Source: Escherichia coli (GTDB lineage Bacteria; Pseudomonadota; Gammaproteobacteria; Enterobacterales; Enterobacteriaceae). From it: DNA of 64,000 bases. The position numbers were made by a program, and so were the translations under genes. Below, in pieces: positions 3,426-37,304 of this stretch. How positions within the stretch are numbered: the stretch's first letter is position 1; each line of letters begins with the position of its first letter. The notes beneath the pieces are model-generated. The model was not told where the DNA came from. It saw only the letters and a list, made by a program, of their open reading frames with translations, and ran no database searches. The DNA lies in the NCBI RefSeq assembly GCF_024298765.1, contig NZ_CP101210.1. One strand, given 5' to 3'.

Positions 3426-4106
3426 TCACAGGTTAAAGGTGTTGATAAGTTTATGGATGAAAGAGAAATGTGGCAGGGCGGAGATAAAACGCTCTTCAGC
3501 GACCAGACTGTGGATGTGGCCTCTCCGTTCAAACCGTTCTGATGTCAGGCTGACTGATTTGATATCTGCCAGAGGAAAGACCTGCAGTTTTCCCTTCTGT
3601 AACGCGATCAGATACCAGCTACCGCTGTAATAAATGAGCCGGCAGGGCTCCAGTGACGGATACCATCGCTCAGTCATCAGAGAGATGTGGATACACTGTC
3701 TTATTGCCAGGATGAGTTGCGAGAAACACTCGGGGAACGTTGCAGTGATATCCGGCGCCGGTAGCCAGATAAGGCAGGGAGAGGGCTCCTGGTTGTCGGT
3801 AAGACAGGTTATCAGTCGTCCGTTCCGGAGCGGAAGTATCCGTGCGATCCCGGTATTCTGTATAAAAGAAAGCATTTCAGGGATCGCACCTGGGCTGCTC
3901 TGTCGTCTGAGGCTGTACCTGCCATTTCTGTACTCTAAATCCAGGTGAACCAGACGCTGATGAAAATCGCGCTGTAAAGTACGTTCTGTAACGCCAAATT
4001 CATCTGACAGTGTTTTTAGTGACAGAGATTCTCCGGCCATCAGTCGGCTGATAATGAGTGATAAGCGAACCGCCAGGCGATCATGCCGGGAACGATTATC
4101 AGACAT
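3426..4106 (-). CDS. WYL-domain transcriptional regulator (YfjR-like)
   Basis: 226 aa; N-terminal HTH (LSLKTLSDEFGVTERTLQRDF) and WYL motif (SGSWYLIAL). Confidence 0.6.
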   Translation of the reverse strand: MSDNRSRHDRLAVRLSLIISRLMAGESLSLKTLSDEFGVTERTLQRDFHQRLVHLDLEYRNGRYSLRRQSSPGAIPEMLSFIQNTGIARILPLRNGRLITCLTDNQEPSPCLIWLPAPDITATFPECFSQLILAIRQCIHISLMTERWYPSLEPCRLIYYSGSWYLIALQKGKLQVFPLADIKSVSLTSERFERRGHIHSLVAEERFISALPHFSFIHKLINTFNL

Positions 4107-4308
4107 AGATGTGCACTCCGTAAGAAAACATCTTTTATTTCATGATGTTATTATGCATCATGATGTTGAAAGGATGTGTCGCATCCGAATAATCAGAAAT
4201 AAAATGCAGCAGAAAAAATATTCCTTTAATTATCTGATTTTTAAGCAGGGTTTCATAAAAAGAAGAATGCTTGTTAATCCAGCGACACATCCTGTCGGCG
4301 TGAGTGTG

Positions 4309-5193
4309 TCAGAACAGACGATCCCACAGTGTGACCAGCAAGTGGATAATGCGGTCCCGGGCCTTACGCAGAAGCTGTAACATCCAGGCCGGAAAGCTGA
4401 ATTGGGCAACGGCAGCGTCAAAGCTTTTCCCGATGGCGTCACCAAAAGTTTGTTGTGCGTGTTTCCGGGCCTGTTCAGAGCGGTTTTCCCCCCGGATATG
4501 TGAATAAACTGCGCTGGTTGCCTGTGGTGGCAGTGCGTGGATCATCAGCGACACCAGTGCCGGAAGATTCCAGCCGACAGGTGCGGCAACGGAGAGTACC
4601 GGAAATGATGACGGGAACAGGGGTGCCACCCGGGCTGTTACTGTCGCCAGTGAGAGTTCCTGCTGACGGGACGGGCATTTTTCTGTGTCGTTCCATTCTT
4701 CAGCAGGAAACACGCGATCGGCATGGCTGAGAACAAACAGAAAACGCGAGGGATCTGCACCTTCATTCAGTAAAAACTGATGCATGGCAATATCAGCAGC
4801 ATACGCACGTTCATCAGCCCGCAGGATCCAGATAATCAGATCCAGTTCCGGCAGTAACTGACGGTAAAGCTCCCGGTATTCCTGATCATGCTGCGGTGTC
4901 TCACCAATGCCGGGCATATCGACCAGCGTCATTCTGCGTTCACCGAGCTGCAGGGTAAGACGATGAGCCTGGCGGGTGCAGCCGTTCAGGGGATGCGTGG
5001 CGCAGATACGGGACTGAAAAATGGCATTACACAGACTGCTTTTGCCGGTGCCGGATTTACCCATAATGCCAATTACGGGCTCGTAATGAATAACACCGTG
5101 GAGATGTTCAAGGATTTTCTGGCGAATTTCTTCAGGAAGAAACGTCAGATATGATTTTACTTGTGCAGAGAGGGAAGAATGGCTGAATGACAT
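4309..5193 (-). CDS. GTP-binding protein, YfjP/YeeP/YkfA family
   Basis: 294 aa; P-loop GKSGTGKSSLCN; DxxG-like MPGIGE. Confidence 0.65.
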   Translation of the reverse strand: MSFSHSSLSAQVKSYLTFLPEEIRQKILEHLHGVIHYEPVIGIMGKSGTGKSSLCNAIFQSRICATHPLNGCTRQAHRLTLQLGERRMTLVDMPGIGETPQHDQEYRELYRQLLPELDLIIWILRADERAYAADIAMHQFLLNEGADPSRFLFVLSHADRVFPAEEWNDTEKCPSRQQELSLATVTARVAPLFPSSFPVLSVAAPVGWNLPALVSLMIHALPPQATSAVYSHIRGENRSEQARKHAQQTFGDAIGKSFDAAVAQFSFPAWMLQLLRKARDRIIHLLVTLWDRLF

Positions 5194-5377
5194 ACCGGTA
5201 TCCTGTTGATTTCGCTGAACCGGATCACACTAATCCGGTTTATCATTCAGGTAATATGGACGTGAAAAATGATGGAATGTCTGAATTACGGACATGATTG
5301 TTAAAGTGTAATGGAGTATGAAGTGAGTTTTTCCGAACGGGAACTAATGACATACTGCGGTTTCAGGAGATGAGAGG

Positions 5378-6508
5378 ATGACCGGACGTAAAAACAAATG
5401 TGTCAGAAAAAATTGTAACAATCAGGTTTTCTCAGTAAAAATGGCAGTGGAGAAAAGACTGTGCAGAAAACATTATGAGAGGTTTTGTGAGCTCAAAAAA
5501 AGAAGAGAGCAAAATCCTGTTCACAGATTAAATGAAGCATTGCCAAGAAAGATAAAAGGACCAAAAAGTAAGAAAAAATTAGTAAAAGAAAGAGAAATCA
5601 TTAACAGCAGAAAAAAACATAAACAGGAGCAGGGACCATCGCTGACTGAACTTAATAAAAAAGTTCGTGAGATACTGAAAACTCCTGCATGGAGAACGCT
5701 GGAAACGAGAATTCGAAGAAACGGAATCACATTTAACTCAAAAGCAGAGTTAGATGCGCTTTCTGAACTTTATGCAATTTATTCATGGGTTTCATATTGC
5801 AAACGGGGCGATAATTATTCTGTGTGGTTTTTGAATTGTCCGGATGTAAATATAAACCTTCATGTGTGCGAATGCCGGTCTTCTGAAAGCGATTGTTATC
5901 TGCCATCTCGTTTTATTATTCTTCCAGCTCCATTAAGGCAAAAAGTAAAAAGAAAATACTCGGCTAATTCGTCTGGGGTACCAGGACATAATGATTCAAA
6001 AAGTCTTTATAAGACAGTTTTGTCTGTTTGTGGTGGGAAAAGAGAAACCGAAATGTTCTTTTATTCATTGCCAGTAAAGACTAATCATCATCCTTACTGG
6101 ATTAAAAGTGGTGTGGTTAAAAGATTCCCTCCTGTTTTTGGTTTGTTGTTTTATGAACAGGAAAGATTAACAGGAGGTGTTTTTCGTTATGTGTTGATAA
6201 GATTTTATAATACTTTTAAAGAGAATTTGTTTTTTGTTGAGATTGTATCGTGCTGTTTTCTTGTTGAGCTTTTTCATGATATTGATTCATTTTTTATAAA
6301 TCAACGATTAAGTAAGCTGGAAAGTTTTATAGATAAGTGGAGGGAGGGTAAAGAAATCTGGATAAAAGTATATTTACAACTGATACATACTATATTGGGA
6401 ATAACTGAAACAGAAAAACTCGTCAATCTATATAATTCATTTTTTACTGATAAAGTGGTTCTCTGGGATGAATCAGTAAAAAAAGTTAAGTGGATTTATG
6501 AGAAATAG
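5378..6508 (+). CDS. hypothetical protein, AT-rich, Cys/His-rich N-terminus
   Basis: 376-aa ORF with GAGAGG RBS; N-terminal C-x5-C...C-x3-H-x4-C then lysine-rich stretch; no family recognised. Confidence 0.4.
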   Translation: MTGRKNKCVRKNCNNQVFSVKMAVEKRLCRKHYERFCELKKRREQNPVHRLNEALPRKIKGPKSKKKLVKEREIINSRKKHKQEQGPSLTELNKKVREILKTPAWRTLETRIRRNGITFNSKAELDALSELYAIYSWVSYCKRGDNYSVWFLNCPDVNINLHVCECRSSESDCYLPSRFIILPAPLRQKVKRKYSANSSGVPGHNDSKSLYKTVLSVCGGKRETEMFFYSLPVKTNHHPYWIKSGVVKRFPPVFGLLFYEQERLTGGVFRYVLIRFYNTFKENLFFVEIVSCCFLVELFHDIDSFFINQRLSKLESFIDKWREGKEIWIKVYLQLIHTILGITETEKLVNLYNSFFTDKVVLWDESVKKVKWIYEK

Positions 6509-8013
6509 TACCATTTAACTGAAAGCCACCATAACGTCTTTTTGACTACATTTATGATAATGCGTCTCATTTTGTTTTCGTTTTTTTGTTCAGGGAAATT
6601 TTCCGAACATCAGTGATAATGAGGGTTTTGTTGTTTTTGTTTCTGCAATGTTTGAGGACTGTTCCTGGAGACGATTCGTTGCTTGTGAGCAAGAGGTGGT
6701 CCGCTTTACTGGACAAGTTTTGCATTTGTTGAGTGGTGAAATGGAAGTAAAAAGAGCCCCTTTCTGGCAATGGTTGAAAAAGTCAGTAGCGTGTGACAGT
6801 AAAAGCTAACATAAAGTGATTATCGTATGATTATGACAATGACTTATAACTTTTATGAAAAGAACAACAGAAACTACGAAGCCATAGCAGATTCCTGAGA
6901 CCATGTTTTCTGAGGTAGAGAAAATAATTCCAGAGTAAATCTGTTCTGTTTTTAGGACAGAAAACTCCATGCTGGCTGTAAAAGTGAAAAATTAACACCC
7001 AGTATGTATGGAAGTCTGAAGATGTTGAGAATGTCGGTATGATACTATATACACATATTTTACTAAGTATTTTTACTAAGCATTTCAGTAAGTGTTATAC
7101 ACGTATTTTCATAAACACTTCTACAATTGTTTTCGTTAAGCATTGCTATACACATCCAGTTTAGTAAATCTTTACGTTAACTAAATCAGTTTAATGCTGC
7201 TGTAAAACCTTTCTGCTTCAGCAATCAATCTGCTATTCGATTTTACTGATGTTACGTTTAACCTTTCCTGAGATTTCGAGTTTCGACGTTAGCATGAGAA
7301 AAGTATCTTTACGCTAAATCAACCCGAACTTTCCTGAAGTAATCTGACGTTCTTTTCGATGTGCTTACAACGATTCTGTTAAATGACTTTCTGGATGTTT
7401 TGATAACAATCAGATTTAGGCATTAACGATTCCTGACGTTTTTCTTTTCCGTGTAAGGTCATTGTTTTCGTCATGAGGTTTCTTCTTGCATTGCGAAAGT
7501 GTGATGAACGGTTTTGGTGTTTTGATTCAGATGAAGTTTACGTTATCGATGGTTAATCGTTTTTATGGTGCGTAGTGAAACGTAACGCTTTCAGGAAGGG
7601 AAAATCGATTCTGATGGGGATGATCGTGTAACGGCGTTATCTGTAAACAGGTTTTAAACATGTCATTCGCATCCGTGATTGAGTTGTGTGATTAAGCTGT
7701 AGGTTTTGGGGTTGTTGTTGATTTGCATTACCAGGAAGCGTTCTGGTTGCGTTTCTGGTGTTTTGTTTGAATGTTCTGTGGATCCTTTTCCCTTCTGACT
7801 TTTCTCGTTGTCTATGTCGTTTTTAAATCCATTCGCTGTTCTTGAGTGTTTTTACCCTGTGTGTAGAATTATCTTTTCGTTCCGGGATGGTTTGTTCCGT
7901 TTCAATCACTCTTAATCAGAAAGTTGTAGCATTGCTCAATGCCGGATGCCGTAAAGTTTTACCGCGGTGATTAATGATGTGAAGTCAATCCAAATCAACG
8001 GAGATCTCTCATC

Positions 8014-8745
8014 ATGAATCAACCAATACACAATGCTTACTGGTTATCCCGTTTTGACAGCCTTCTCGACAGTGCCCTGGCGCAGCACCGTGCCGTCTCG
8101 TTAATCCGGGTGGATTTACGTTTCCCTGAGTATATGCCTGTCACCATCATGGATCCCGATCCGGATTCAGCGGTGATTTCTCGTTTTTTTGCATCCCTGA
8201 AAGCCAAAATTCAGGCTTACCAGCGGAAAAAAAGATGTGCCAATCAGCGTGTGCATGCAACCAGCCTGGGTTATTTCTGGTGCCGGGAGTTCGGCAAGAT
8301 GTATGGCAGGAAACATTATCACGTGATATTACTGCTCAACAAAGATACCTGGTGCTCGCTCGGGGATTTCAGCGAACCGTCTTCGCTGGCGACGATGATC
8401 CAGGAGGCATGGTGCAGCGCCCTGCATCTTGAGCCCTGGCAGGGTAATGGACTGGTTCATTTTTCCAGGCGGACGCCTTTCCGTAAACCGACATCATCTG
8501 ATGCTCGCCCTTCTTCCGATGATACGCCTTTGTCGGGTGGATGTTCTGAAACCAGGAAGGTTTCAGACAAAAAGTCTGGTGAAGCCGCTGTTCTCTGGAT
8601 CAAGCGTGGTGATGTGGAAGCGATGCAGAAAGCCCGGAACAGAGCCAGTTATCTCGTGAAAAATGAAACGAAGTTGCATGATGGTTCAGGTCAACGTAAT
8701 TATGGTTGCAGTCGTGGGCCGGGGCGTCTACTGGATGGCAGGTGA
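8014..8745 (+). CDS. YagK/YfjJ family protein (inovirus Gp2-like)
   Basis: 243 aa; YHVILLLNKD core; preceded by ~1.5 kb AT-rich leader; IS1 lies about 350 bp downstream. Confidence 0.55.
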   Translation: MNQPIHNAYWLSRFDSLLDSALAQHRAVSLIRVDLRFPEYMPVTIMDPDPDSAVISRFFASLKAKIQAYQRKKRCANQRVHATSLGYFWCREFGKMYGRKHYHVILLLNKDTWCSLGDFSEPSSLATMIQEAWCSALHLEPWQGNGLVHFSRRTPFRKPTSSDARPSSDDTPLSGGCSETRKVSDKKSGEAAVLWIKRGDVEAMQKARNRASYLVKNETKLHDGSGQRNYGCSRGPGRLLDGR

Positions 8746-9111
8746 ACCCTGTAAAACAGCATCTGGTGCCTGAGTGTATACCACGGTAAGGGCGTTGGAT
8801 GATGTCTTTAAATAATACAGTGCATTTTCATTCGTTTCCGCACTTTATGTTTTCACTAATCATAATAGGAAAAGTGACCACTAGCCTTGATAAATTGTAT
8901 TCACGGCCATTTCAGGAGTGGATTGTTGTGAATAACACGATGAGATCAGGGGGCTGAAGATTTTTTCTTTATCCGTTCAGACTTCAGTAACTGGAAAAAG
9001 CTTTCTGTAACCGCATTATAGTGGCAGTTACCGCGATGGTCGTGTTATTTCAGGAACGACTGACGCTCATGGCTTGTACACTAAAGAGTGAACTTAGGTA
9101 ATGACTCCAAC

Positions 9112-9615
9112 TTATTGATAGTGTTTTATGTTCAGATAATGCCCGATGACTTTGTCATGCAGCTCCACCGATTTTGAGAACGACAGCGACTTCCGTCCCA
9201 GCCGTGCCAGGTGCTGCCTCAGATTCAGGTTATGCCGCTCAATTCGCTGCGTATATCGCTTGCTGATTACGTGCAGCTTTCCCTTCAGGCGGGATTCATA
9301 CAGCGGCCAGCCATCCGTCATCCATATCACCACGTCAAAGGGTGACAGCAGGCTCATAAGACGCCCCAGCGTCGCCATAGTGCGTTCACCGAATACGTGC
9401 GCAACAACCGTCTTCCGGAGACTGTCATACGCGTAAAACAGCCAGCGCTGGCGCGATTTAGCCCCGACATAGCCCCACTGTTCGTCCATTTCCTCGCAGA
9501 CGATGACGTCACTGCCCGGCTGTATGCGCGAGGTTACCGACTGCGGCCTGAGTTTTTTAAGTGACGTAAAATCGTGTTGAGGCCAACGCCCATAATGCGG
9601 GCAGTTGCCCGGCAT
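9112..9615 (-). CDS. insB: IS1 transposase InsB
   Basis: 167-aa ORF matching IS1 InsB as recalled. Confidence 0.9.
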
Positions 9616-10072: not shown

Positions 10073-10579
10073 GTGAGTCATATGAAGGCAACCAATATAG
10101 ACCCTCAACTGCTTGAAAAAGCCACGAGTATCTTTGCTGAGTTGGGCTTACCTATTGAGCAGGCTATTAACGTCTTTTTAGCTAAATCCGTTCAAGCCAA
10201 AGGTTTTCCGTTTTCTGTTGCTCTTGAAAATGAAGTAGAGACACGGGAAGTTGCACAAACGCAACACAATATCAGCAATGCAGAGATAACCGAAGCTATC
10301 CAAGACTTGGTTGAACATGCTCTACCACTGAGTGAAATAGAAAACCTCACGCAGCTAACCTATTGTCGCAACATTTTTGGGTTGTCATTCCCCGTGCTCA
10401 AACTGGCTAAATCATCACGGCCAGAAGACATTCGCAGTGCAGCCAAAGATGCCAAAGAGCGAAACCGCTACTCCACCACTAAAGTGGCCCAGCGAGATGA
10501 AAAAACCTATGTTATTTGCACCCAATGGACCGACAGACATCGTTCTGCATTTTGCCGTTGGCAAGCCATCTTTAGCTAG
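10073..10579 (+). CDS. RelB/DinJ-like antitoxin-domain protein with ~100-aa C-terminal extension
   Basis: N-terminal IDPQLLEKATSIFAELGLPIEQAINVFLAKSVQAKGFPFSV resembles DinJ/RelB fold; no toxin ORF adjacent; ends 66 bp before hsdM. Confidence 0.4.
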   Translation: MSHMKATNIDPQLLEKATSIFAELGLPIEQAINVFLAKSVQAKGFPFSVALENEVETREVAQTQHNISNAEITEAIQDLVEHALPLSEIENLTQLTYCRNIFGLSFPVLKLAKSSRPEDIRSAAKDAKERNRYSTTKVAQRDEKTYVICTQWTDRHRSAFCRWQAIFS

Positions 10580-10645
10580 AACGCAAAATAATAACCAAAC
10601 AATACACTGATTTTTTAACGATTTAACTTCATTTAGGTAGTATCA

Positions 10646-12625
10646 ATGAACTTACAAGACAAAGAACAAAGCGCCAAACTCTCCAGTGCTATTTGGCGTA
10701 TGGCAGATGATTTATGGGGTGATTTCAAACACACCGATTTTGCGCGGATTATCCTGCCATTTTTGCTACTGCGTCGTATTGAATGCGTGTTAGAACCCAC
10801 CCGTGAGGAAGTTCGTAAGTTCTATCTGGCCGAAAAACAATCCGGCATAGACCTTGGTTTAGTGTTGCCAGAAATTGCGGGATTCGCCTTTTACAACACC
10901 AGTGAATATAGCCTAGAAACCTTAGGCGCGTCAGACACCGGCGACAACCTAGAACACTACATCAGCCAGTTCAGCAAAAACGTTCGTACCATCTTTGATG
11001 AGTTTAAATTTGGTCAAACCATAGAAGATCTGGAAAAAGCCAAGTTGCTGTATCGCATGGTAAACCATTTTGCCAACCTCGACTTGCATCCTGATGTAGT
11101 GTCTGACCGCGTATTATCAGATGCTTATGAAGAGCTGATTCTAAAGTTCGCCAGTTCGGTTAATGAAAAGGCCGGGGAATTTATGACCCCGCGTGATGCC
11201 GTGCGTCTTGCCACCAAACTGGTGCTGGCGGCGGATGAAGATATCTTTAGTGAAAAGGGTGTGATCCGCACCATCTATGACCCAACCTGTGGCACGGGCG
11301 GTTTCCTTTCCGATGCCATTAGCCAAATTGAAGAAATGGGCAGCAGCGCTAAAGTCGTGCCTTTTGGTCAAGAGCTCGACCCCGCGACCCATGCCATGGC
11401 GCTGACCAATATGATGATCCGCGGTTTTGATGCCAATAACATCAAGCAAGGCAACACCTTATCAGACGATCAGTTACGTGCCGACAAGTTTCACTACGGC
11501 CTTGCCAACCCGCCATTTGGCATTAAGTGGGAAAAAGCCAAGAAAGAAGTAGAACGTGAGCACAAACAGCTCAAATACGCCGGACGCTTTGGGCCAGGCC
11601 TGCCGAGTATTTCTGATGGTTCAATGCTGTTTTTACTGCACTTGGTATCAAAAATGGAAACGCCGGAAAATGGTGGTGGCCGAGTGGGTATAGTCCTTTC
11701 TGGCTCGCCACTGTTTAATGGCGATGCAGGCTCAGGCCCATCAGAAATCCGCCGTTGGCTGCTAGAACAAGACTTAGTCGAAGCGATTGTTGCCCTGCCA
11801 ACCGATATGTTCTTCAACACCGGCATTGGCACCTACATCTGGATTTTGACTAACCATAAAGAGCCAAGACGCAAGAATCAGGTGCAACTGATTAACTTGG
11901 CAGATATTTGGACTCCCATGCGTAAATCGCAAGGCGATAAGCGCAAGTACCTGAGTGATGAACAGATTGACGATATTGTCCGTGCGTACGATGGCTTTGA
12001 AGCCAGTGACAACTGTAAGATCTTCCAGACTACTGATTTTGCCTACCGTAAAGTCACCATTCAGCGTCCACTGCGTGCCAAACTAGATATTACCGCTGCG
12101 GGCATTGCTGCATTTGTGCAGCAAGATACGTTTAAAAAACTCAAACCAGAGCAACAAGCGGCATGGGTACAATACCTCACCGATAACCTTGGCCTTCAGC
12201 CTTATGAATGGGCACGTTTGGCGGTTAAGAAGAATAACAATAAGGGTGACTTTGGTAAGTGCTCAAAAGCACTGGCTACGGCCTTAACTGCGCACTTTGT
12301 AAAAATTGATCCGCAATTTGAGCCTGCACTGGATGAAAAAGGCCAAGTGATCGCCGACCCTAAACTCAAAGACACCGAAAGCATTCCTTTTGACCGCGAC
12401 GTTGAAGATTACTTCGCACAAGAGGTGCTGCCACATGTACCGGATGCCTTTATTGATCACTCAGTGCGTGATGAAAAAGACGGCGAAGTGGGCATTGTCG
12501 GTTATGAAATTAACTTTAACCGCTATTTCTACCAATACGTGCCACCACGCGAGTTGAGTGTGATTGATCGTGAGCTAAAAGCATGTGAAGCGCGCATTCA
12601 GGCTCTGCTGAATGAGGTGGCGTAA
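10646..12625 (+). CDS. hsdM: Type I restriction-modification methyltransferase subunit HsdM
   Basis: 659 aa; motifs FMTPR, DPTCGTGGFL (SAM binding), NPPFG (catalytic); stop overlaps hsdS start (TAATG). Confidence 0.9.
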   Translation: MNLQDKEQSAKLSSAIWRMADDLWGDFKHTDFARIILPFLLLRRIECVLEPTREEVRKFYLAEKQSGIDLGLVLPEIAGFAFYNTSEYSLETLGASDTGDNLEHYISQFSKNVRTIFDEFKFGQTIEDLEKAKLLYRMVNHFANLDLHPDVVSDRVLSDAYEELILKFASSVNEKAGEFMTPRDAVRLATKLVLAADEDIFSEKGVIRTIYDPTCGTGGFLSDAISQIEEMGSSAKVVPFGQELDPATHAMALTNMMIRGFDANNIKQGNTLSDDQLRADKFHYGLANPPFGIKWEKAKKEVEREHKQLKYAGRFGPGLPSISDGSMLFLLHLVSKMETPENGGGRVGIVLSGSPLFNGDAGSGPSEIRRWLLEQDLVEAIVALPTDMFFNTGIGTYIWILTNHKEPRRKNQVQLINLADIWTPMRKSQGDKRKYLSDEQIDDIVRAYDGFEASDNCKIFQTTDFAYRKVTIQRPLRAKLDITAAGIAAFVQQDTFKKLKPEQQAAWVQYLTDNLGLQPYEWARLAVKKNNNKGDFGKCSKALATALTAHFVKIDPQFEPALDEKGQVIADPKLKDTESIPFDRDVEDYFAQEVLPHVPDAFIDHSVRDEKDGEVGIVGYEINFNRYFYQYVPPRELSVIDRELKACEARIQALLNEVA

Positions 12626-13911
12626 TGAATGCTGGCAACATAGTAGATGCTTTCGTATCTGACTCGAAATGGAACTCAGTACCAGCTAAACGTTTATTTA
12701 CGAGTAGCAAAGAAATCAATCAAGGAATGAAAGAATCTAATCGTCTTGCACTAACAATGAAAGGTGTCATAAACCGCTCGTTAGACGATTTACAAGGACT
12801 TCAATCTTCTGATTACTCTGTTTATCAGATTTTTGAAAAAGATGACTTAGTTTTTAAGCTCATAGATCTTGAAAATATAAAGACTAGCCGAGTGGGGATT
12901 GTGCATGAACGAGGAATAATGAGCCCTGCATACATCCGTGTTTCAGCGAGTTCAAATAGCATCTACCCAAGGTTCTATTACTGGTACTTTTTTGCTCTAT
13001 ACCTAACCAATATTTATAACAAACTGGGTGGAGGAGTTCGTCAGAACCTAACAGCTGGTGATCTTTTAGAAATACCTGTTCCACTGATTGATATTTCATT
13101 ACAGAAGCAGGTTAGCACATTCCTTGATCGCGAAACCCAGCGCATCGACAGTCTGATCGAGGAAAAGCAGACCTTTATTAAGCTGCTCAAAGAAAAACGC
13201 CAAGCACTGATCAGCCATGTGGTCACAAAGGGGCTCTATCCCAATGTGGAGATGCAGGACTCTGGCATCGAGTGGATTGGGCAAGTGCCGAAGCATTGGG
13301 AAGTCAAAAAGATAAAGCATATTTGCTCCAACTTTATGTATGGAACCTCTCAAGACTGTAACCAGTCTGATGTTGGCTATCCTGTTCTCAGGATACCAAA
13401 CATCAAGAGTACCAATGTTGATTTTGAAGATCTCAAATATGCAAATATCAGTGATGTTGATGCTTTAACTTATCTTTTATCAAGAGGCGACATTTTAGTC
13501 ATCAGAACTAACGGTAACCCTAATCTGGTCGGCCAAAGCGCGCTTTTTGATTCAAATGGGCAGTATTTATTTGCGTCGTACCTAATAAAGTTAACACCAA
13601 AGCAAGGAGTGGATACTAGCTTCTTAGTGGAAGCGATGAACTCACTATCTGTTCGTCAAGCATTAACATTTCAGTCAAGAACATCGGTAGGTAACTACAA
13701 CCTGAGCATTCCTTCACTAGCTAATACAAGTATTGCTATCCCACCAATTGATGAGCAAAAGACAATAACGAATTACTTGAGTGCAGCAACGATAAACATT
13801 GATTTACTGATTCAAGAGACTGATAAATCGATTGATCTTCTAAAAGAACACCGCACATCGCTGATCAACGCGGCTGTCACAGGAAAAATAGACGTCAGGG
13901 AGGCGGTGTAA
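12625..13911 (+). CDS. hsdS: Type I restriction-modification specificity subunit HsdS
   Basis: 428 aa; two variable target-recognition regions separated by conserved central (ETQRIDSLIEEKQTFIKLLKEKRQALI) and C-terminal repeats; TAATG overlaps on both sides. Confidence 0.85.
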   Translation: MNAGNIVDAFVSDSKWNSVPAKRLFTSSKEINQGMKESNRLALTMKGVINRSLDDLQGLQSSDYSVYQIFEKDDLVFKLIDLENIKTSRVGIVHERGIMSPAYIRVSASSNSIYPRFYYWYFFALYLTNIYNKLGGGVRQNLTAGDLLEIPVPLIDISLQKQVSTFLDRETQRIDSLIEEKQTFIKLLKEKRQALISHVVTKGLYPNVEMQDSGIEWIGQVPKHWEVKKIKHICSNFMYGTSQDCNQSDVGYPVLRIPNIKSTNVDFEDLKYANISDVDALTYLLSRGDILVIRTNGNPNLVGQSALFDSNGQYLFASYLIKLTPKQGVDTSFLVEAMNSLSVRQALTFQSRTSVGNYNLSIPSLANTSIAIPPIDEQKTITNYLSAATINIDLLIQETDKSIDLLKEHRTSLINAAVTGKIDVREAV

Positions 13912-16900
13912 TGGCTGCACATCATGAAGTGCATTTTGAACAATATATTACCGAGCAGTTGGTGAACAATGGCTGGAAAGAAGGCCATTCCTGCCACTAT
14001 GACCAGCAACGCGCCCTTTACCCGCAAGATGTCATGGATTGGGTAAAGGCCACCCAGCCAGATGCCTGGCACAAACTGAATAAACTGCATGGTGTGAATG
14101 CCGAGCAGGTGCTGTTGGAGCGTTTGGAAAAAGCCCTCTCTTCCCACAAAGCTGGCAGTAAAACAGGTGGCACCATTAATGTGCTGCGTAAAGGCTTTAC
14201 CATTGCAGGTTGCGGCACGATTGCCATGGGCCAACGCAAACCCGAAGATGCGCGCAATGAAGAGCGTATAGCCCGTTATGAGCACAACATTTTGCGCGTG
14301 GTGCGCCAACTGAAATATTGCCCGACTCGCGAGTGGGAAATTGACTTGGTGTTCTTTATCAACGGTCTACCCGTTGCCACCGCCGAGCTAAAAACCGATT
14401 TTACCCAGTCGCTAGAATCGGCGATTGCGCAGTACAAAGAGGATCGTCTGCCCGTTGACCCAAAAACCAAGCGTAAAGAGCCGCTGTTAACCTTTAAACG
14501 CGGTGCAGTGGTACATTTTGCCATGTCTGATACAGAAATCGCCATGGCGACCAAACTGGCGGGAGAAAATACCTATTTTCTGCCCTTCAATAAAGGCCAT
14601 GATGGTTCTACCTCTGATTTGCCCGTACACATCAACTTGCCGGGTGAAGATGGAGAGTATCCGGTCAGCTATTTTTGGCAAGAAATTGCCCAAAAAGATA
14701 ATTGGCTACGCATTTTCTACAGCTTTGTGTATGTCGAAACCAAAGAGGTTGCCGATAGCAATGGCAAGGTTGAGCGTAAGGAAACACAGATTTTTCCGCG
14801 TTATCATCAGTTAGCCGCAGTCAACAAGATGATTGATGATGCCCGCCAGAACGGCGCAGGCATGCAGTATCTTTGTGAGCACAGCGCCGGTTCGGGAAAA
14901 ACCTCTACCATAGCCTGGACGGCCCATGATTTGATTCGTTTACGCAGCACCGATGGTAAAGCGGTCTTTAAATCAGTGATCATTGTGACCGACCGCACCG
15001 TGCTGGATTCGCAGTTGCAAGATGCGGTGCAACAGCTGGATCATCAATATGGGGTGATTAAGGCGATTGATCGCGAAAAGAGCAGCGAGTCGAAATCAAA
15101 ACAGCTGACTGAAGCGCTATTGACTGGCACGCCGATCATTGTAGTGACGATTCAAACCTTCCCATATGCGTTAGAAGCGATTCTGACCAATCAATCTTTG
15201 GCACAAAGTAACTTTGCGGTGATCATCGATGAAGCACACACCTCGCAAACAGGCTCTACAGCCAAAGGGTTACGCGCAGCGCTTACTCTAAACCTTAGCC
15301 CTCAAGAGTTGGAGCAAATGAGCATTGAGGACATTCTTACTAAGGTGCAAGAAGCGCGCGCCATGCCCAAGAACGTTTCGCACTTTGCTTTTACGGCAAC
15401 ACCCAAGCACAGCACCAAGATGTTGTTTGGCCGCCCGAAAGACCCTAACCAACCAGTGTCAGATGACAATCTTCCTGAATCGTTCCACCTCTACACCCAA
15501 CGTCAGGCCATTGATGAGGGTTTTATTCTTGATGTGCTGGAGAATTACACCCACTACGATACAGCCTACAAAATTGGTGAGAACAATCTGGATGAGAAGC
15601 GCGTAGACAGCAAACAAGCTCGCCGCGCGTTGGCGCGCTGGATGTCACTGCACCCAACCACGGTCAGCCAAAAAGTCGAATTTATTATTAAGCACTTCAA
15701 GGCCAATATCGCTCACCTACTGGAAGGTGAAGCCAAAGCCATGGTGGTCACATCGGGCAGGCCACAGGCGGTGAAATACAAGCTTGCTTTTGATAAATAC
15801 ATTAAAAAGCATGGTATTGAAGGTATCCAAGCCTTGGTTGCCTTCTCGGGCAAAGTCCCCGGCAAAGATTTGGGTGATGAAGACAGCCAAGACCCGCTAG
15901 AAATTGATTTCGATAAAGAGTACACCGAGTACAACTTAAACCCAGACACGCACGGGGCTGACCTGCGCCATGAGTTTGAGAAAACCGAATATCGCGTCAT
16001 GTTAGTCGCCAACAAGTTCCAAACGGGCTTTAATCAACCAAAACTGGTTGCCATGTATTTGGATAAGAAAATATCCGATGTAGAAGCGGTGCAAACGCTG
16101 TCTCGCCTAAACCGCACCTATCCAGGCAAAGACACAACCTTCGTGATTGATTTTGTTAACGATCCACAAACCATTCTCAATGCGTTCAAAAAGTACGACA
16201 AAGGCGCGCAGCTTAATGAAGTGCAAGATGTGAACGTCATCTATGACATCAAAGATATTTTGGATGAACAGAACATATACAACCATCAAGATTTAGAGTT
16301 GTTTAAGCAAGCGCGTGGTAAATCGATTCTCGGCCAATCACCTGACAAAAAGCCACACGCGCACAAGAAACTGCTAGCTGCCACACAACGCCCTACCGAT
16401 GTGTTCAACGTTAAGCTCAAAGAGCTGGTTGATGCTGCAAACCATTGGGATCAGCAATACAACAAAGCGCACCTTGCGGGTGATGAAAAAGCGGCGAACT
16501 ACGCAGAATCTCAGCGCAGTGATTTCACCAAGCAGCGCGAAGCACTAATGCGTTTTAAGTCAGATTTAGCTCGATTTGTGAAGCACTATAGCTATATGGC
16601 GCAATTGATTGAGTTTGGTGATCCTGAACTGGAAAACTTTGCCGCGTTTGCTCATTTGCTATCACGTCGATTGAAAGGGGTAACACCAGAAAACATCGAT
16701 CTCAGTGCACTGGTACTAGAAAAATTCAAAATCAAATACGACAAAGAGCCGCTTCCAGAAGCGTTTAATCAGGTACTTGAACCTATCCGCCCCAACTATA
16801 ACGACCCTGCGGATCGTGAACAGGCATTTCTTGCCGATATCATTCGCCGCCTAAACGAACTGTTTGGCGATGTCGGCGACGAACCCGGTCGCCGAAACTT

Positions 16901-17147
16901 TGCCAACGGTACTATTACGCGTGTCACCCAAAATCCAATTGTGGTTGAGCAGATAGAAAAGCACGACAAGTCGATTGCCCTCAAAGGCGACTTGCCGCAA
17001 GCGGTGAAGCAAGCCGTTGTGCAGGCTCTGCTGAAAGAAGGTGATATAGCCCGAACGCTACTCAAAGACCCACAAGTTATGGCAAGTTATGTTGAGTTGA
17101 TTTTTGACATGATGAAGCAAGGTGCAGAACAGGCGGCGGTGAAATAA
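13911..17147 (+). CDS. hsdR: Type I restriction enzyme endonuclease/helicase subunit HsdR
   Basis: 1078 aa; Walker A GSGKTST and DEAH box (VIIDEAHTSQ); GGGAGG RBS; TAATG overlap with hsdS and with downstream gene. Confidence 0.9.
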   Translation: MAAHHEVHFEQYITEQLVNNGWKEGHSCHYDQQRALYPQDVMDWVKATQPDAWHKLNKLHGVNAEQVLLERLEKALSSHKAGSKTGGTINVLRKGFTIAGCGTIAMGQRKPEDARNEERIARYEHNILRVVRQLKYCPTREWEIDLVFFINGLPVATAELKTDFTQSLESAIAQYKEDRLPVDPKTKRKEPLLTFKRGAVVHFAMSDTEIAMATKLAGENTYFLPFNKGHDGSTSDLPVHINLPGEDGEYPVSYFWQEIAQKDNWLRIFYSFVYVETKEVADSNGKVERKETQIFPRYHQLAAVNKMIDDARQNGAGMQYLCEHSAGSGKTSTIAWTAHDLIRLRSTDGKAVFKSVIIVTDRTVLDSQLQDAVQQLDHQYGVIKAIDREKSSESKSKQLTEALLTGTPIIVVTIQTFPYALEAILTNQSLAQSNFAVIIDEAHTSQTGSTAKGLRAALTLNLSPQELEQMSIEDILTKVQEARAMPKNVSHFAFTATPKHSTKMLFGRPKDPNQPVSDDNLPESFHLYTQRQAIDEGFILDVLENYTHYDTAYKIGENNLDEKRVDSKQARRALARWMSLHPTTVSQKVEFIIKHFKANIAHLLEGEAKAMVVTSGRPQAVKYKLAFDKYIKKHGIEGIQALVAFSGKVPGKDLGDEDSQDPLEIDFDKEYTEYNLNPDTHGADLRHEFEKTEYRVMLVANKFQTGFNQPKLVAMYLDKKISDVEAVQTLSRLNRTYPGKDTTFVIDFVNDPQTILNAFKKYDKGAQLNEVQDVNVIYDIKDILDEQNIYNHQDLELFKQARGKSILGQSPDKKPHAHKKLLAATQRPTDVFNVKLKELVDAANHWDQQYNKAHLAGDEKAANYAESQRSDFTKQREALMRFKSDLARFVKHYSYMAQLIEFGDPELENFAAFAHLLSRRLKGVTPENIDLSALVLEKFKIKYDKEPLPEAFNQVLEPIRPNYNDPADREQAFLADIIRRLNELFGDVGDEPGRRNFANGTITRVTQNPIVVEQIEKHDKSIALKGDLPQAVKQAVVQALLKEGDIARTLLKDPQVMASYVELIFDMMKQGAEQAAVK

Positions 17148-17701
17148 TGAATACTGCGTTTCGGGTTTTACTTACGTTCAATGCAACATCACTACTAGTG
17201 ATTATCTTTGCGGTACAAAAAGGGTACTCACTCGGATATTTCTTTGGTGGTTTCGCTTGCTTCGATTGGATAGCAGCACTTCCGAACGCAGTATCATATT
17301 TACTCTATTTTCTTATCCCTGTTTTATCGACTGGATTGAGTATTTGGCTGAGTAAGTATTTGGGTAAAGACGATTTTAAGGCGGGTGAAGTAGCGAGTAT
17401 TGAGCATGCCAATAACAGCTTCCTACCAAGTTATTTGGGTTACTTTTTCGTGGCGTTGAGCATTGGTAACTGGGAGACATTGTGGTTTGTTTATGGCGTT
17501 TTGTTTGTTTTTACTCTCTTATCGCAAGCACTCTACTTTAACCCATTGTTTTTACTGTTTGGTTATGAGTTTTATAACATTACAACCAAAAACGGAACGG
17601 CCATTTTCCTTATTAGCCGAGAGCGCTACAAGAAGCCAGATGACATCGAAATATCATTGGCTTATCGAATCAATAATTACACATTTATCGAGCGAGGATA
17701 A
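17147..17701 (+). CDS. small integral membrane protein (about 4 predicted TM helices), translationally coupled to hsdR; KwaA-like candidate
   Basis: 184 aa; hydrophobic segments LLVIIFAV, YLLYFLIPVLSTGLSIWL, YLGYFFVALSI, LWFVYGVLFVFTLL; start overlaps hsdR stop (TAATG); visibly more AT-rich than hsdR. Confidence 0.6.
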   Translation: MNTAFRVLLTFNATSLLVIIFAVQKGYSLGYFFGGFACFDWIAALPNAVSYLLYFLIPVLSTGLSIWLSKYLGKDDFKAGEVASIEHANNSFLPSYLGYFFVALSIGNWETLWFVYGVLFVFTLLSQALYFNPLFLLFGYEFYNITTKNGTAIFLISRERYKKPDDIEISLAYRINNYTFIERG

Positions 17702-18543
17702 TGATGGACCATGTACTGGCACATATAAAAACTAGAGCAAAAAAACGCATTTTCAAATTGGTTTCTGATCAATCTCTTTTTGATACCGTCACAATCGACT
17801 TAAATGCCTGTATTCCATACAATCCAGACCATAACCTTGACGAAGACTCATGGTTTAAAATTGAAGACTTTAGTCAAAAAGAGTTTTGTATTGAACTGCT
17901 AAAAAAAGACTATGATTCAAAAGACTACGATGACTTAACCAAAGATAACTTCGCCAAGATCGCCTACTTATTTGCAATTCAAGGTAATGATTTTTACTTT
18001 CAAAAAATCACTCCAAGCCTATTCGTAAAACGCAAAACGCTTGTTTTTGGTGAAGCCGCAGAAATTGAGAAGAGCCAAACACGTTTAGTAATAAACGCCT
18101 TACCTGATGCAGTGTACTTCAAAGTGGCCGATACCTTGATATTCAAAAATCTGGCAACGATCTCGAGCATTTTTAAAGGTATCGATGAGTTGTACAAGGA
18201 AGCAACAAAAGAAGAAGTTGAGCAGTTTTTAGATGCACAGTTTATAGAGTTGGGTAATGACTACAACGTAGATAGCGTCTCAAAACCTAATAGAAAACGT
18301 ATTGGCCTTGCTATGGCAACACTTGATGCGATGTCTGCTGACGATAAAGCTAACATGCTTGATTATATCGACGGTTACTGCGGTGAACAGAAGCTGAAAT
18401 TCGATAAAGAAAATCAGAAGTTTGAAATATCTAATGACGATGAGTTGAAGTTACTGCTTTATGGCATTGAACAACGCTTCTATACGACCCCGTTTGGCAA
18501 AGAAAAAAGGCTCGCTAACTCTGTAACCGCTATGGATAAATAA
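17701..18543 (+). CDS. hypothetical acidic cytoplasmic protein, coupled to the membrane protein; KwaB-like candidate
   Basis: 280 aa, no TM segments, GAGG RBS, start overlaps upstream stop (TAATG); family not recognised by eye. Confidence 0.6.
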   Translation: MMDHVLAHIKTRAKKRIFKLVSDQSLFDTVTIDLNACIPYNPDHNLDEDSWFKIEDFSQKEFCIELLKKDYDSKDYDDLTKDNFAKIAYLFAIQGNDFYFQKITPSLFVKRKTLVFGEAAEIEKSQTRLVINALPDAVYFKVADTLIFKNLATISSIFKGIDELYKEATKEEVEQFLDAQFIELGNDYNVDSVSKPNRKRIGLAMATLDAMSADDKANMLDYIDGYCGEQKLKFDKENQKFEISNDDELKLLLYGIEQRFYTTPFGKEKRLANSVTAMDK

Positions 18544-18563
18544 TAGCCCATTATCAGTAACAT

Positions 18564-19613: not shown

Positions 19614-19670
19614 CCGATATAGTACAGCCCTGATCTCTAATGAGTTGAGGGCTGTGTTGTAAGATCATAA

Positions 19671-20347
19671 CTATAAAGGATTATCCATCTTAAAATCGTC
19701 GATATCGCCTGTCATTTTGAATAGATTGGTGTCATTCCAACGGCACAGTTGTCTAACCCGCATTAGATTTGAGTTGGCTCTGCGGATTATTGAGAAAGCA
19801 TCTTCAACAGCAGTAATCACCGATTTTTCCCAATCTTGTGCTCGGGTAAAGGTGCTTTGTGAATAGCGATAATTGCCCTCACGGGGGAGGTAATGGCTGA
19901 TCACCTGGTATTTGTCAGAATTCTTTTTAGGTTTAAACTCGTTGTAAACCCAGAAAATTTCGAGTTTTTTGTTTCTTTGCCTTACACGACAACCAAAATG
20001 ACCTGGGTAGCCTTCAGAGTTTTTACCTCTATGTGCAACGTTGTTCAGCCAGAACAAGTCTGCAATTTTTTGTGCTATGTAGAAGTAGCGGAGCTGTTCT
20101 ATTTCGGTTGATTTATGGGTGTAGTGTAGATATTGCTCTGATATGGTTAAGGAAAAAGCATTGCGTCGTCTTGATTAACATTTGTGCTATTGACAATAAA
20201 GGTTTCCCAAATATTAATTTGTGTTTCTAGTCCTTTAAATGATTTTGAGAAGGCTTCTATGTACTCAGATTGCGGTTGATTTCCCCCATTTAGTGCTGCA
20301 CCAAATGTAGCTATCTATTGTTCTAAAAATGAATGATTTTTGGTCAT
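19671..20347 (-). pseudogene. disrupted gene of unknown function (at least three frame segments)
   Basis: 128-aa ORF has no in-frame ATG at its 5-prime end and is open upstream; two more open segments in other frames up to an ATG near 20347. Confidence 0.4.
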
Positions 20348-22986: not shown

Positions 22987-26237
<3,251 letters not shown>

Positions 26238-37275: not shown

Positions 37276-37304
37276 TGACCGGGAGAAATATCGACTCTTC
37301 CGTT

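What the first reader, a model, noticed from the sequence alone, without database searches (positions are those of the whole stretch)
5378..6508. AT-rich 376-aa unknown gene in the cargo slot of a CP4-57-type island
It lies between the YfjP-like GTPase gene and a Gp2-like gene, the position where CP4-57-type islands typically carry variable cargo, often defence genes. The protein has a Cys/His-rich N-terminus and a lysine-rich stretch, a strong RBS, and AT content much higher than its neighbours. No family was recognised.
Basis: inference. Interest (0 to 1): 0.5.

Follow-up and report, generated by a model that had tools for sequence, protein, structure and literature searches.

The report
Hypervariable dead-HNH zinc-finger island gene
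The AT-rich 376-aa gene is real, but it is a fixed part of a common class of E. coli genomic islands rather than random cargo: it belongs to an unnamed zinc-finger protein family descended from HNH nucleases, it has lost the nuclease catalytic residues, and very different versions of it fill the same slot in different islands.

Summary
The ORF at 5378-6508 (+) is confirmed. It encodes 376 aa, has GC 0.335 against about 0.51-0.55 for its neighbours, and has an AGGAG 8 nt before the ATG. It lies between a YfjP-like GTPase gene (-) and a Gp2-like gene (+). Pfam, NCBIfam, PADLOC and PHROGs recognise nothing.

It is a real gene. It is present in 462 of 5426 complete E. coli genomes, has no indels, and gives dN/dS 0.33 against an 80%-identical allele. 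Homologues at 30% identity in Klebsiella sit in the same position.

An exhaustive profile search found only 38 cluster representatives; the members that carry an organism name are all Enterobacterales. Eleven distant members carry an HNH motif (LEvCHxYPNSxGGxNxxxNxxIaPxxINR). The window protein is homologous along its whole length (hhalign 99.9%, E 1e-31) but has lost the His and Asn residues.

The AF2 model (pLDDT 83.8) shows an N-terminal CCCH zinc finger, a basic linker, a beta-beta-alpha remnant and an all-alpha C-terminal domain with no solved relative.

All 10 sampled E. coli islands with this GTPase (94-97% nt identity) carry a family member there. These alleles share only about 21% identity, are bounded by the same breakpoints (5270 and 6921), and the slot is never empty in 5426 genomes. 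It is a hypervariable backbone gene, not a cargo slot.

Its function is inferred: a non-catalytic DNA-binding or specificity factor of the island.

The parts
5378..6508 (+). Gene X: 376-aa protein of an unnamed family whose named members are all Enterobacterales (zinc finger, degenerate HNH, all-alpha C-terminal domain)
   Evidence: ORF and translation. RefSeq hypothetical protein WP_097546996. Present in 462 E. coli genomes. dN/dS 0.33. Family of 38 cluster representatives. AF2 model with pLDDT 83.8.
5365..5369 (+). Shine-Dalgarno AGGAG, 8 nt before the ATG
   Evidence: Read directly from the sequence.
5378..5539 (+). Residues 1-54: CCCH zinc finger (C8, C13, C29, H32) followed by a basic helix
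   Evidence: The four ligands are invariant in the enteric subgroup and nearly invariant in the HNH+ subgroup. pLDDT is 90-97. Lowest dN/dS, 0.17. pI 10.3. Weak motif-level resemblance to the TtuA N-terminal Zn finger, E about 5.
5540..5641 (+). Residues 55-88: Lys/Arg-rich linker, mostly low-confidence in the model and probably disordered. HNH+ relatives have a second Cys motif (CxYC...NxKYCSxxxR) here.
   Evidence: pLDDT is below 50 for residues 60-82. 13 K+R, pI 10.9. Alignments A2 and A4.
5849..5959 (+). Residues 158-194: degenerate HNH (beta-beta-alpha-Me) core. E165 replaces the catalytic His; the GG and the three Asn are also replaced.
   Evidence: Aligned block. hhalign register. AF2 strands 161-165 and 179-183 and helix 184-194. 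The HNH+ subgroup profile hits only HNH nucleases in the PDB and only Pfam HNH_4/HNH_5.
5978..6505 (+). Residues 201-376: all-alpha C-terminal domain with family-wide motifs (SLY, PLFxLLxxExxRL, LE, YNSFF). No solved structural relative.
5271..6920 (.). Allelic cassette: 107 nt upstream of the ATG, gene X, and about 410 nt of non-coding DNA. It is replaced as a block in islands carrying type B or type C alleles.
   Evidence: The same homology breakpoints, 5269/5270 and 6921/6922, are seen against L016 and L017, while the flanks stay 92-96% identical on the left and about 78-82% on the right.
4309..5193 (-). YfjP-like GTPase gene, divergent neighbour. It is the first gene of the GTPase-WYL-DUF932-ArdB-RadC-CbeA/CbtA operon.
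   Evidence: Annotation. 2505 places in 1870 E. coli genomes. 94-95% aa identity between islands whose X alleles share about 21%.
5183..5250 (.). Inverted repeat (16-nt arms, with an inner AACCGGAT/ATCCGGTT palindrome) spanning the GTPase start codon, in the flank shared by all alleles
   Evidence: Function untested.
6509..8013 (+). AT-rich, ORF-free 1.5-kb leader between X and the Gp2-like gene, with ATACACRT iteron-like repeats at 7048, 7096 and 7147
   Evidence: No conserved ORF: the 53-aa ORF at 6648-6809 is broken in L006 and L015. It is indel-rich. Repeat enrichment. The repeats are shared by type A and type B islands. No Rfam family.
8014..8745 (+). Inovirus Gp2 / YagK-YfjJ family (HUH-type rolling-circle initiator-like) gene, downstream member of the module that X leads
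   Evidence: Annotation. PHROG 25019 plus weak matches to replication-initiator families. Same order X, Gp2, AlpA in L006, L012, L013, L015 and L022.

Best explanation
SHOWN. The gene encodes a member of an unnamed protein family; every member that carries an organism name is from Enterobacterales. The family is a fixed backbone component of tRNA-integrated islands of the CP4-57 / RadC-ArdB-CbtA 'moron module' class. The gene always sits at the junction between the GTPase-WYL-DUF932-ArdB-RadC-CbtA operon and the replication/excision module (Gp2/HUH or DUF3987, plus AlpA).

The protein has four parts: an N-terminal CCCH zinc finger with a basic helix, a Lys/Arg-rich linker, a central beta-beta-alpha (HNH) core, and an all-alpha C-terminal domain. 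One clade of the family keeps the HNH residues H...N...N. The window's protein, like all three common E. coli allele types, has lost them (E165 in place of the His), so it is almost certainly not a nuclease.

In E. coli the locus is a 1.65-kb allelic cassette. Types A (this one), B and C share only about 21% identity, between flanks that are 94-97% identical. The slot is never empty.

INFERRED. Four features fit a nucleic-acid-binding protein that no longer cuts: the zinc finger is the best-conserved part, the N-terminal third is strongly basic (pI above 10), the family-wide conserved motifs lie outside the catalytic site, and the gene heads the module containing the rolling-circle-initiator-like gene and AlpA. 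I therefore propose that X binds the island's own DNA, or a partner, as a specificity or regulatory factor for island transcription, replication or excision. The allele would set the specificity.
For: Gene reality and selection.

Small family, no named family. Its named members and its AFDB structural relatives are all Enterobacterales.

Conserved position:
- Klebsiella, L002-5.
- E. coli 80% allele, L006.
- L012, GTPase divergent from X, then AlpA and YagK_YfjJ.
- L013/14.
- L010 and L011.
- L019, DUF3987, X, GTPase, WYL through to CbtA.
- Providencia, L022.
- E24377A, L015.

HNH ancestry:
- Motif block in 11 members.
- The A3 profile hits only three PDB chains, all HNH nucleases, in motif register.
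- The only Pfam families touched are HNH_4 and HNH_5.
- Two AFDB structural relatives are named 'HNH endonuclease'.
- The enteric subgroup aligns to the HNH+ subgroup at hhalign 99.9%, E 1e-31, over 350 columns.
- The AF2 model has a beta-beta-alpha at residues 161-194.

Loss of catalytic residues.

Allelic cassette:
- Type B in 975 genomes.
- Type C in 741 genomes.
- Type A in 462 genomes.
- GTPase in 1870 genomes.
- Common breakpoints.
- Family membership of every sampled allele.
- GTPase about 95% against X about 21% identity.
- Zero empty sites in 5426 genomes.

Basic character.

Island class and the position of true cargo: and PMC12458937 section 11.
Against: No experiment or DNA-binding evidence exists. 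Everything about function is inference from domain make-up and position.

The HNH assignment for the active clade rests on sub-threshold matches: PDB E about 1.2, best Pfam E 2.6e-3. That clade also has Cys or Ser where canonical HNH has Asp or His before the catalytic His.

Type C alleles lack the zinc finger entirely, so the finger cannot be essential for whatever the family has in common.

The ATACACRT repeats downstream do not co-vary with the X allele, so no allele-specific DNA target was found.

No convincing sigma-70 promoter was found for X.

K-12 CP4-57 itself lacks the family, so it is not universal to every island of this broad class.
Confidence: 0.45

Rival explanations
1. X is a conflict protein, for defence or counter-defence, that works with the adjacent GTPase and WYL regulator. 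The ancestral form would be a GTPase plus HNH-nuclease pair of McrBC-like logic. The dead-HNH alleles would act as sensors or decoys. The extreme allelic divergence would come from an arms race with phages or host defences.
For: Linkage with an MMR_HSR1 GTPase survives down to 19-23% X identity. In two HNH+ contexts X is co-directional and immediately upstream of the GTPase. The GTPase weakly matches the Eleos LeoBC and LeoA models, 8e-8 and 2.5e-4. A WYL regulator follows the GTPase. The neighbouring operon holds anti-restriction genes, ArdB/KlcA and RadC. Hypervariability with conserved flanks is typical of conflict genes.
Against: No allele matches any PADLOC model. dN/dS between the two type-A alleles is 0.33, with no sign of positive selection overall. 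Some family members occur without a GTPase (L011, L009, L022). The gene is obligatory in the backbone rather than patchy as defence cargo usually is. No relatives were found in phage records or IMG/VR.
Confidence: 0.25
2. X is a decaying free-standing HNH homing endonuclease gene: a selfish cassette lodged between conserved island genes that has lost activity and is on its way out.
For: Zinc finger plus HNH is, from my own knowledge, a common architecture of phage free-standing homing endonucleases. The gene is a discrete AT-rich cassette with sharp breakpoints between conserved genes. The catalytic residues are lost in most alleles.
Against: There is no presence/absence polymorphism: 0 empty sites in 5426 genomes. 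Dead alleles remain full length and under purifying selection. They are retained at 19-30% identity across genera in the same position. The strongest conservation lies outside the nuclease core. Different alleles are all one family rather than unrelated invaders.
Confidence: 0.1
3. One reading: an arbitrary, exchangeable cargo gene, probably anti-phage defence, in the island's variable slot.
For: In K-12 CP4-57 the yfjJ-yfjP interval does hold AbpAB and RnlAB. The gene is AT-rich and of unknown family. Only 462 of 1870 GTPase-bearing genomes carry this particular allele.
Against: The other islands carry homologues of the same family at the same place. The position is conserved across genera. 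There are no defence-model hits. The real cargo of this island lies between the Gp2-like gene and the integrase.
Confidence: 0.05

Closest known systems
HNH (beta-beta-alpha-Me) endonuclease superfamily (Pfam HNH_4 / HNH_5; PDB 4h9d, 8w2z, 8zq9)
   Same: Distant family members carry H-x-x-P-x-x-x-GG-x-N-x-x-x-N...N in the HNH register and are the only source of any database similarity. The window protein is homologous to them along its whole length. It is predicted to keep the beta-beta-alpha topology.
   Different: The window protein has none of the catalytic or metal-binding residues (E165 for His; GG and Asn replaced). No Pfam HNH model matches it. About 85% of the protein (zinc finger, helical domains) has no counterpart in known HNH proteins, and no solved structure resembles the whole.
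Backbone genes of CP4-57-like / 'defensive MGE' islands of Enterobacterales (int, AlpA, HUH/Gp2-like initiator, RadC-ArdB-CbtA moron module; described in PMC12458937 section 11; analogous Pseudomonas islands in PMC12595487)
   Same: Same island architecture and neighbours. Like those genes, X holds a fixed position and is found in tRNA-integrated islands.
   Different: X is not among the core functions listed in either paper. K-12 CP4-57 itself lacks it. Unlike its neighbours, it is hypervariable: about 21% identity against about 95% for the GTPase.
Free-standing phage HNH homing endonucleases with zinc-finger DNA-binding modules (from my own knowledge)
   Same: Zinc finger plus HNH architecture. 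An AT-rich cassette sitting between conserved genes with sharp boundaries.
   Different: The slot is never empty. The gene is catalytically dead yet maintained under purifying selection. No phage relatives were found.
Allele-specific master regulators of phage satellites, such as SaPI Stl (analogy only, from my own knowledge)
   Same: The gene is divergently transcribed at the junction of two island operons, and its sequence is extremely divergent between otherwise similar islands.
   Different: No HTH domain. No evidence of repression or of any phage-protein sensing. This is a working analogy, not homology.

Membership tests
HNH endonuclease superfamily | Catalytic His (general base) at the end of the first beta-strand | tested here: not met
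   The aligned position is E165 in the window protein. It is T, K or S in the Klebsiella-like homologues. His is present in 11 distant members.
HNH endonuclease superfamily | Conserved Asn residues and the metal ligand (the N...N or N...H of the motif) | tested here: not met
   All three Asn positions and the GG are substituted in the window protein, which reads SD-CYLPSRF...LRQ.
HNH endonuclease superfamily | Beta-beta-alpha fold of the core | tested here: met
   The AF2 model (pLDDT 83.8) has strands 161-165 and 179-183 followed by helix 184-194. This is a prediction only. Whole-model fold searches do not retrieve HNH structures from the PDB.
HNH endonuclease superfamily | Significant profile match to an HNH family model | tested here: not met
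   No Pfam or NCBIfam hit for the window protein. HNH+ relatives reach only HNH_4 at 2.6e-3 and HNH_5 at 6.7e-3 and PDB HNH chains at E about 1.2. Descent from an HNH-bearing family is supported indirectly by hhalign to the HNH+ clade, 99.9%.
HNH endonuclease superfamily | Metal-dependent nuclease activity | not testable with these tools
   Needs a biochemical assay. Predicted to be absent from the residue losses.
Anti-phage defence systems (PADLOC-DB v2) | Match to a defence-protein model, or co-occurrence as a known system | tested here: not met
   No families match X type A, B, C or HNH+. Only the neighbours match: weak LeoA/LeoBC for the GTPase and WYL for the regulator.
Variable island cargo | Unrelated genes, or no gene, at the same position in related islands | tested here: not met
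   10 of 10 sampled islands carry a homologue. The empty junction is absent from 5426 genomes. The position is the same in other genera.
CCCH zinc finger (treble-clef-like) | Four conserved Zn ligands in a CxxxxC...CxxH arrangement | tested here: met
   C8, C13, C29 and H32 are invariant in A1 and A5 and nearly invariant in A4. pLDDT is above 90. Metal content was not tested. Type C alleles lack the module.
Free-standing homing endonuclease gene | Presence/absence polymorphism at a conserved target site, with an intact nuclease | tested here: not met
   No empty sites. Catalytic residues lost.
Phage or phage-satellite protein families (PHROGs, BFVD, INPHARED, IMG/VR) | A detectable relative in phage or viral collections | tested here: not met

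The most novel reading that the evidence does not exclude
X is the obligatory, allele-specific 'identity' determinant of a very common class of enterobacterial islands. It would be an HNH-derived protein that no longer cuts and now acts as the island's master switch or sensor, analogous to the divergent Stl repressors of SaPIs. Each allele would recognise a different DNA site or a different inducing helper-phage or plasmid protein, and so decide when and by what the island is mobilised.
Probability: 0.15. Interest if true: 0.75.

Novelty: new variant of a known kind. Interest (0 to 1): 0.5.

Why it matters
About a third of complete E. coli genomes (1870 of 5426) carry islands with this backbone. 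Those islands deliver virulence, resistance and defence cargo, yet nobody knows how they are regulated, replicated or moved (PMC12458937 section 11 and PMC12595487 describe the class as uncharacterised). All 10 sampled islands contain a member of this unannotated family at the same junction, and it is the most divergent point of an otherwise near-identical backbone. That pattern is what one expects of a specificity determinant. A named family, a domain model (zinc finger plus inactivated HNH) and defined allele types (A, B, C, HNH+) give an experimental handle on the biology of these islands. They also correct the default assumption that AT-rich unknown genes in islands are cargo.

Tried and rejected
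1. Direct family searches of the window protein against Pfam, NCBIfam, PADLOC and PHROGs gave nothing.

2. AF2 with the shallow alignment A1 gave an unusable model, pLDDT 44.6. Only the 27-sequence alignment A2 worked.

4. A second word-index search with the A2 profile added no new members.

5. A phage or plasmid origin was checked. tblastn against phage records found nothing and against plasmids found one record. The IMG/VR scan found nothing. The first attempt, with A2, failed for lack of a conserved stretch.

6. Rfam on 4000-9500 found no family, and the promoter/terminator scan found nothing above chance.

7. The 53-aa ORF at 6648-6809 downstream of X is rejected as a gene, because it has stops or frameshifts in L006 and L015.

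8. I tested whether the ATACACRT repeats are allele-specific X binding sites. This is rejected, because type B islands have the same repeats.

9. I tested whether K-12 CP4-57 has a named homologue such as YfjH. There is none.

10. The 5.1-kb contig L009 (AlpA-like, X, ParM) gave no informative repeats or families, so nothing can be concluded about X as a replication protein.

11. The HNH+ E. coli allele was not found in complete genomes by megablast.

12. Literature searches found no description of this protein. The searched terms were YfjP/YeeP/YkfA; DUF932/CbtA/RadC; inovirus Gp2/AlpA; and inactive HNH. SEN1998 of ROD21 is an AlpA-type RDF and is unrelated.
Full report
OBSERVATION

The ORF at 5378-6508 (+) exists as described. 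It has an ATG start, encodes 376 aa, and is the only long ORF in that stretch. AGGAG at 5365-5369 lies 8 nt before the ATG. GC of the gene is 0.335, with 400-nt windows of 0.29-0.38. The GTPase gene on its left is 0.51-0.55 and the Gp2-like gene on its right is about 0.50-0.52.

The N-terminus is Cys/His-rich (C8, C13, C29, H32, C37). Residues 55-88 are Lys/Arg-rich, with pI 10.9; the whole protein has pI 9.7.

The window is E. coli. It is identical to strain FY10 (NZ_CP095816), where the ORF is annotated 'hypothetical protein' WP_097546996 between 'GTPase family protein' and 'inovirus Gp2 family protein'. Pfam, NCBIfam, PADLOC and PHROGs give no significant hit.

IS IT A GENE?

Yes. It occurs in 462 of 5426 complete E. 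coli genomes, full length in 458, at 95.8-100% nt identity and at several chromosomal sites. An 80%-identical allele (L006) differs at 14% of nucleotides without a single indel. The non-coding DNA immediately downstream, by contrast, is riddled with indels. dN/dS against that allele is 0.33 overall and 0.17 for residues 1-60. Homologues of 30-38% identity exist in Klebsiella, Atlantibacter and others.

THE FAMILY

A profile search that read all 1.84 billion representatives found only 38 proteins. About 20 of them are full-length relatives of 370-432 aa. Every cluster member that carries an organism name is from Enterobacterales: E. coli, Klebsiella, Lelliottia, Scandinavium, Providencia, Proteus and Moellerella. 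All are labelled hypothetical. Foldseek against AFDB50 likewise returned only Enterobacterales proteins at significant E-values. Two of them are labelled 'HNH endonuclease'.

In the 27-sequence alignment A2, eleven distant members share the block L-E-v-C/S-H-x-Y-P-N-S-x-G-G-x-N-x-x-x-N-x-x-I-a-P-x-x-I-N-R. A profile of that region (A3), searched against all PDB sequences, hit three chains and nothing else. All three are HNH nucleases (8w2z, 8zq9, 4h9d), aligned so that H, GG, N and N fall on the HNH motif; E is about 1.2. The only Pfam families touched by these segments are HNH_4 (3 members, best 2.6e-3) and HNH_5 (2 members, best 6.7e-3). Each match is individually sub-threshold, but they are concordant.

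The enteric subgroup containing the window protein aligns to this HNH+ subgroup with hhalign probability 99.9%, E 1.1e-31, over 350 columns. In that register the window protein reads NLHVCECRSSESD-CYLPSRFIILPAPLRQKV. E165 replaces the catalytic His, and the GG and all three Asn are replaced. The Klebsiella-like proteins have T, K or S at the His position. The window protein is therefore an HNH-derived protein that has lost the catalytic residues.

STRUCTURE

With the shallow alignment, AF2 failed (pLDDT 44.6). With A2 it gave pLDDT 83.8 and pTM 0.71. The model has these parts:
- A small zinc-finger-like N-terminus and long helix, residues 1-54, pLDDT 90-97.
- A low-confidence, probably disordered basic linker, residues 60-82.
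- A helical domain, residues 89-152.
- Strands 161-165 and 179-183 followed by helix 184-194, which is the beta-beta-alpha topology at the position of the degenerate motif.
- An all-alpha C-terminal domain, residues 210-354.

The family-wide conserved motifs lie outside the catalytic site. They are W105 in KTPAWR, SLY at 209-211, PLFxLLxxExxRL around 252-264, E288, and YNSFF at 352-356. This implies that the family's common function does not depend on cleavage.

CONTEXT: BACKBONE, NOT CARGO

The 30%-identical Klebsiella homologue sits in the same place. It is divergent from an MMR_HSR1 GTPase gene that heads a DUF932-RadC-DUF987-CbeA-CbtA operon, and it is followed by AlpA and a Gp2-like gene. 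Other contexts agree:
- A 19% relative (L012) has GTPase divergent from X, then AlpA and YagK_YfjJ.
- A 21% relative in an Enterobacteriaceae bacterium has WYL ... X, Gp2, AlpA.
- HNH+ Providencia proteins have the moron module divergent from X, followed by Gp2 and AlpA.
- An HNH+ E. coli allele lies co-directionally: DUF3987, X, GTPase, WYL..., DUF932, ArdB, RadC, CbeA/CbtA.
- Others read int ... X, GTPase or int, DUF6387, small ORF, X, DUF932.

In FY10 the island runs from tRNA-Sec (selC) and its integrase to the yicL side. The order is: selC and integrase; cargo (tia, pEtN transferases, nanXY, a group II intron, mobI, RhuM, a type I R-M system, RelB); IS1; the Gp2-like gene; X; the GTPase-to-DUF4942 module; IS1.

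This matches the class of 'defensive MGEs' described in PMC12458937 section 11. That class has an integrase, an excisionase and an HUH rolling-circle endonuclease, cargo, and a RadC/ArdB/CbtA moron module at the far end. Similar Pseudomonas islands are moved by a jumbo phage (PMC12595487). Neither paper mentions X. In this island the cargo lies between the integrase and the Gp2-like gene, not where X is.

HYPERVARIABLE ALLELIC CASSETTE

The GTPase gene is found in 1870 genomes, at 2505 places. That is four times more genomes than carry X type A. In islands lacking type A, the same position holds other 'hypothetical proteins':
- Type B, 407 aa, with a zinc finger (L016, L027).
- A group of 310-320-aa proteins without the finger, type C (L017, L026, L028, L029).

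All are family members. hmmsearch with the A2 profile gives E 5e-75 for type B and 1e-15 to 5e-20 for type C. hhalign of A2 against L017 gives 97.8%, E 1e-12. All are HNH-dead.

Type B occurs in 975 genomes at 1068 places, and type C-like sequences in 741 genomes at 815 places. With type A (514 places) this roughly accounts for all GTPase copies.

Relative to the window, GTPase protein identity and X identity compare as follows:

| Locus | GTPase aa identity | X aa identity |
|---|---|---|
| Type B (L016) | 94.9% | 20.7% |
| Type C (L017) | 94.6% | 21.8% |
| Type A variant (L006) | 93.9% | 79.5% |
| Klebsiella (L002) | 51.9% | 29.9% |
| HNH+ E. coli allele (L019) | 69.0% | 23.4% |

Homology between islands breaks at the same two points, window 5269/5270 and 6921/6922, for both type B and type C. 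This defines a 1.65-kb cassette: 107 nt of upstream DNA, the gene, and about 410 nt of non-coding DNA.

An artificial 'empty site' junction (5171-5270 joined to 6921-7020) is found contiguous in none of the 5426 genomes, although 1862 genomes match its halves. K-12 CP4-57 itself has no family member. There, the yfjJ-yfjP interval holds abpAB and rnlAB.

HOW IT MOST LIKELY WORKS

Shown:
- The domain make-up.
- The loss of catalytic residues.
- The obligatory position at the junction of two operons.
- The allelic hypervariability.
- Purifying selection within an allele type.

Inferred: a conserved zinc finger, a strongly basic N-terminal third and a dead nuclease core make a nucleic-acid-binding protein that no longer cuts. 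Its position at the head of the Gp2/AlpA module, back-to-back with the GTPase operon, suggests a regulatory or accessory role in island transcription, replication or excision. The cassette-like allelism suggests that it sets a specificity. I put about 0.45 on this package. The descriptive half is much firmer than the functional half.

Rivals:
- A conflict module with the GTPase and WYL regulator, 0.25. For it: the linkage with the GTPase, the weak LeoA/LeoBC similarity of the GTPase, and the anti-restriction neighbours. Against it: no defence-model hits, dN/dS 0.33, and family members without a GTPase.
- A decaying homing endonuclease, 0.10. For it: the cassette form and the architecture. Against it: no empty sites, purifying selection, and retention across genera.
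- Arbitrary defence cargo, 0.05.

Weak points. Type C alleles lack the finger. I found no allele-specific DNA target, because the ATACACRT repeats downstream are shared by type A and type B islands. No promoter for X was identified. The catalytic competence of the HNH+ clade is itself unproven, since it has Cys or Ser where canonical HNH has Asp or His before the catalytic His.

NOVELTY AND VERDICT

The family has no Pfam, NCBIfam, PHROG or PADLOC model, and I found no paper that describes it. Its only link to known biology is a distant HNH ancestry. I class it as a new variant of a known kind: an inactivated HNH derivative recruited as a fixed, hypervariable backbone gene of a very common island class.

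Interest is 0.5. The function is unknown. However, the pattern gives a concrete, testable handle on how these islands, present in about a third of E. coli genomes, are controlled. That pattern is an obligatory slot, about 21% identity between alleles within about 95%-identical flanks, and active and dead nuclease versions.

Noticed in passing
window 6509-8013: This is a 1.5-kb AT-rich stretch (GC 0.37) with no conserved ORF between X and the Gp2-like gene. It holds three ATACACRT repeats about 50 bp apart (7048, 7096, 7147; 0.65 expected in the whole 64 kb) and a tandem TTTTACTAAG(T/C)AT (7058-7083). Copy number varies between islands, and the repeats are present in both type A and type B islands. 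It may be an origin or operator region for the Gp2/HUH-like protein.
   Followed up: partly
window 5183-5250: An inverted repeat with 16-nt arms (CTGAATGACATACCGG / CCGGTTTATCATTCAG) encloses a perfect AACCGGAT...ATCCGGTT palindrome. It spans the GTPase start codon and is conserved in islands with different X alleles. It could be an operator, or an mRNA hairpin that masks the GTPase start.
   Followed up: partly
window 4309-5193 (-): The YfjP-like GTPase weakly matches PADLOC models LeoBC (8e-8) and LeoA (2.5e-4) of the Eleos/dynamin-like defence system. It is followed by a WYL-domain regulator at 3426-4106 (-).
   Followed up: no
window ~10073-20057: To the right of an IS1 lie a RelB/DinJ antitoxin gene, a complete type I R-M system (hsdM 10646-12625, hsdS 12625-13911, hsdR 13911-17147), two hypothetical genes, RhuM, and mobI(A/C) at about 19671-20057 (-). 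This looks like a piece of an IncA/C-mobilisable genomic island (MGI-like) embedded in the selC island.
   Followed up: no
window ~38772-38866 (-): RefSeq annotates tRNA-Sec (selC), the island's integration site, here, with a P4-type integrase next to it at about 37282-38472. ARAGORN reported no tRNA at all in the window.
   Followed up: partly
window ~23550-25058 (-): A group II intron reverse transcriptase/maturase gene (ltrA) is inserted in an IS3-family element inside the island cargo. Several IS3, IS1 and IS66 fragments show that the island is a decayed composite.
   Followed up: no
L017 7950-8804, L026 5432-6241, L028 5421-6230, L029 5032-5820: Every finger-less type C allele is followed by a convergent hypothetical gene of about 262-284 aa that overlaps its 3' end by 4 nt. 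Types A and B have no such partner. It may be a replacement partner or part of the type C cassette.
   Followed up: no
L015 20194-20628 (E24377A island): An intact copy of this island type carries its own H-NS-family gene downstream of the X-Gp2-AlpA module. In the window this part of the island is cut off by IS1 at about 9100.
   Followed up: no
window 6648-6809 (+): A 53-aa ORF in the cassette's non-coding tail is interrupted by stops or frameshifts in L006 and L015, so it is not a gene.
   Followed up: yes
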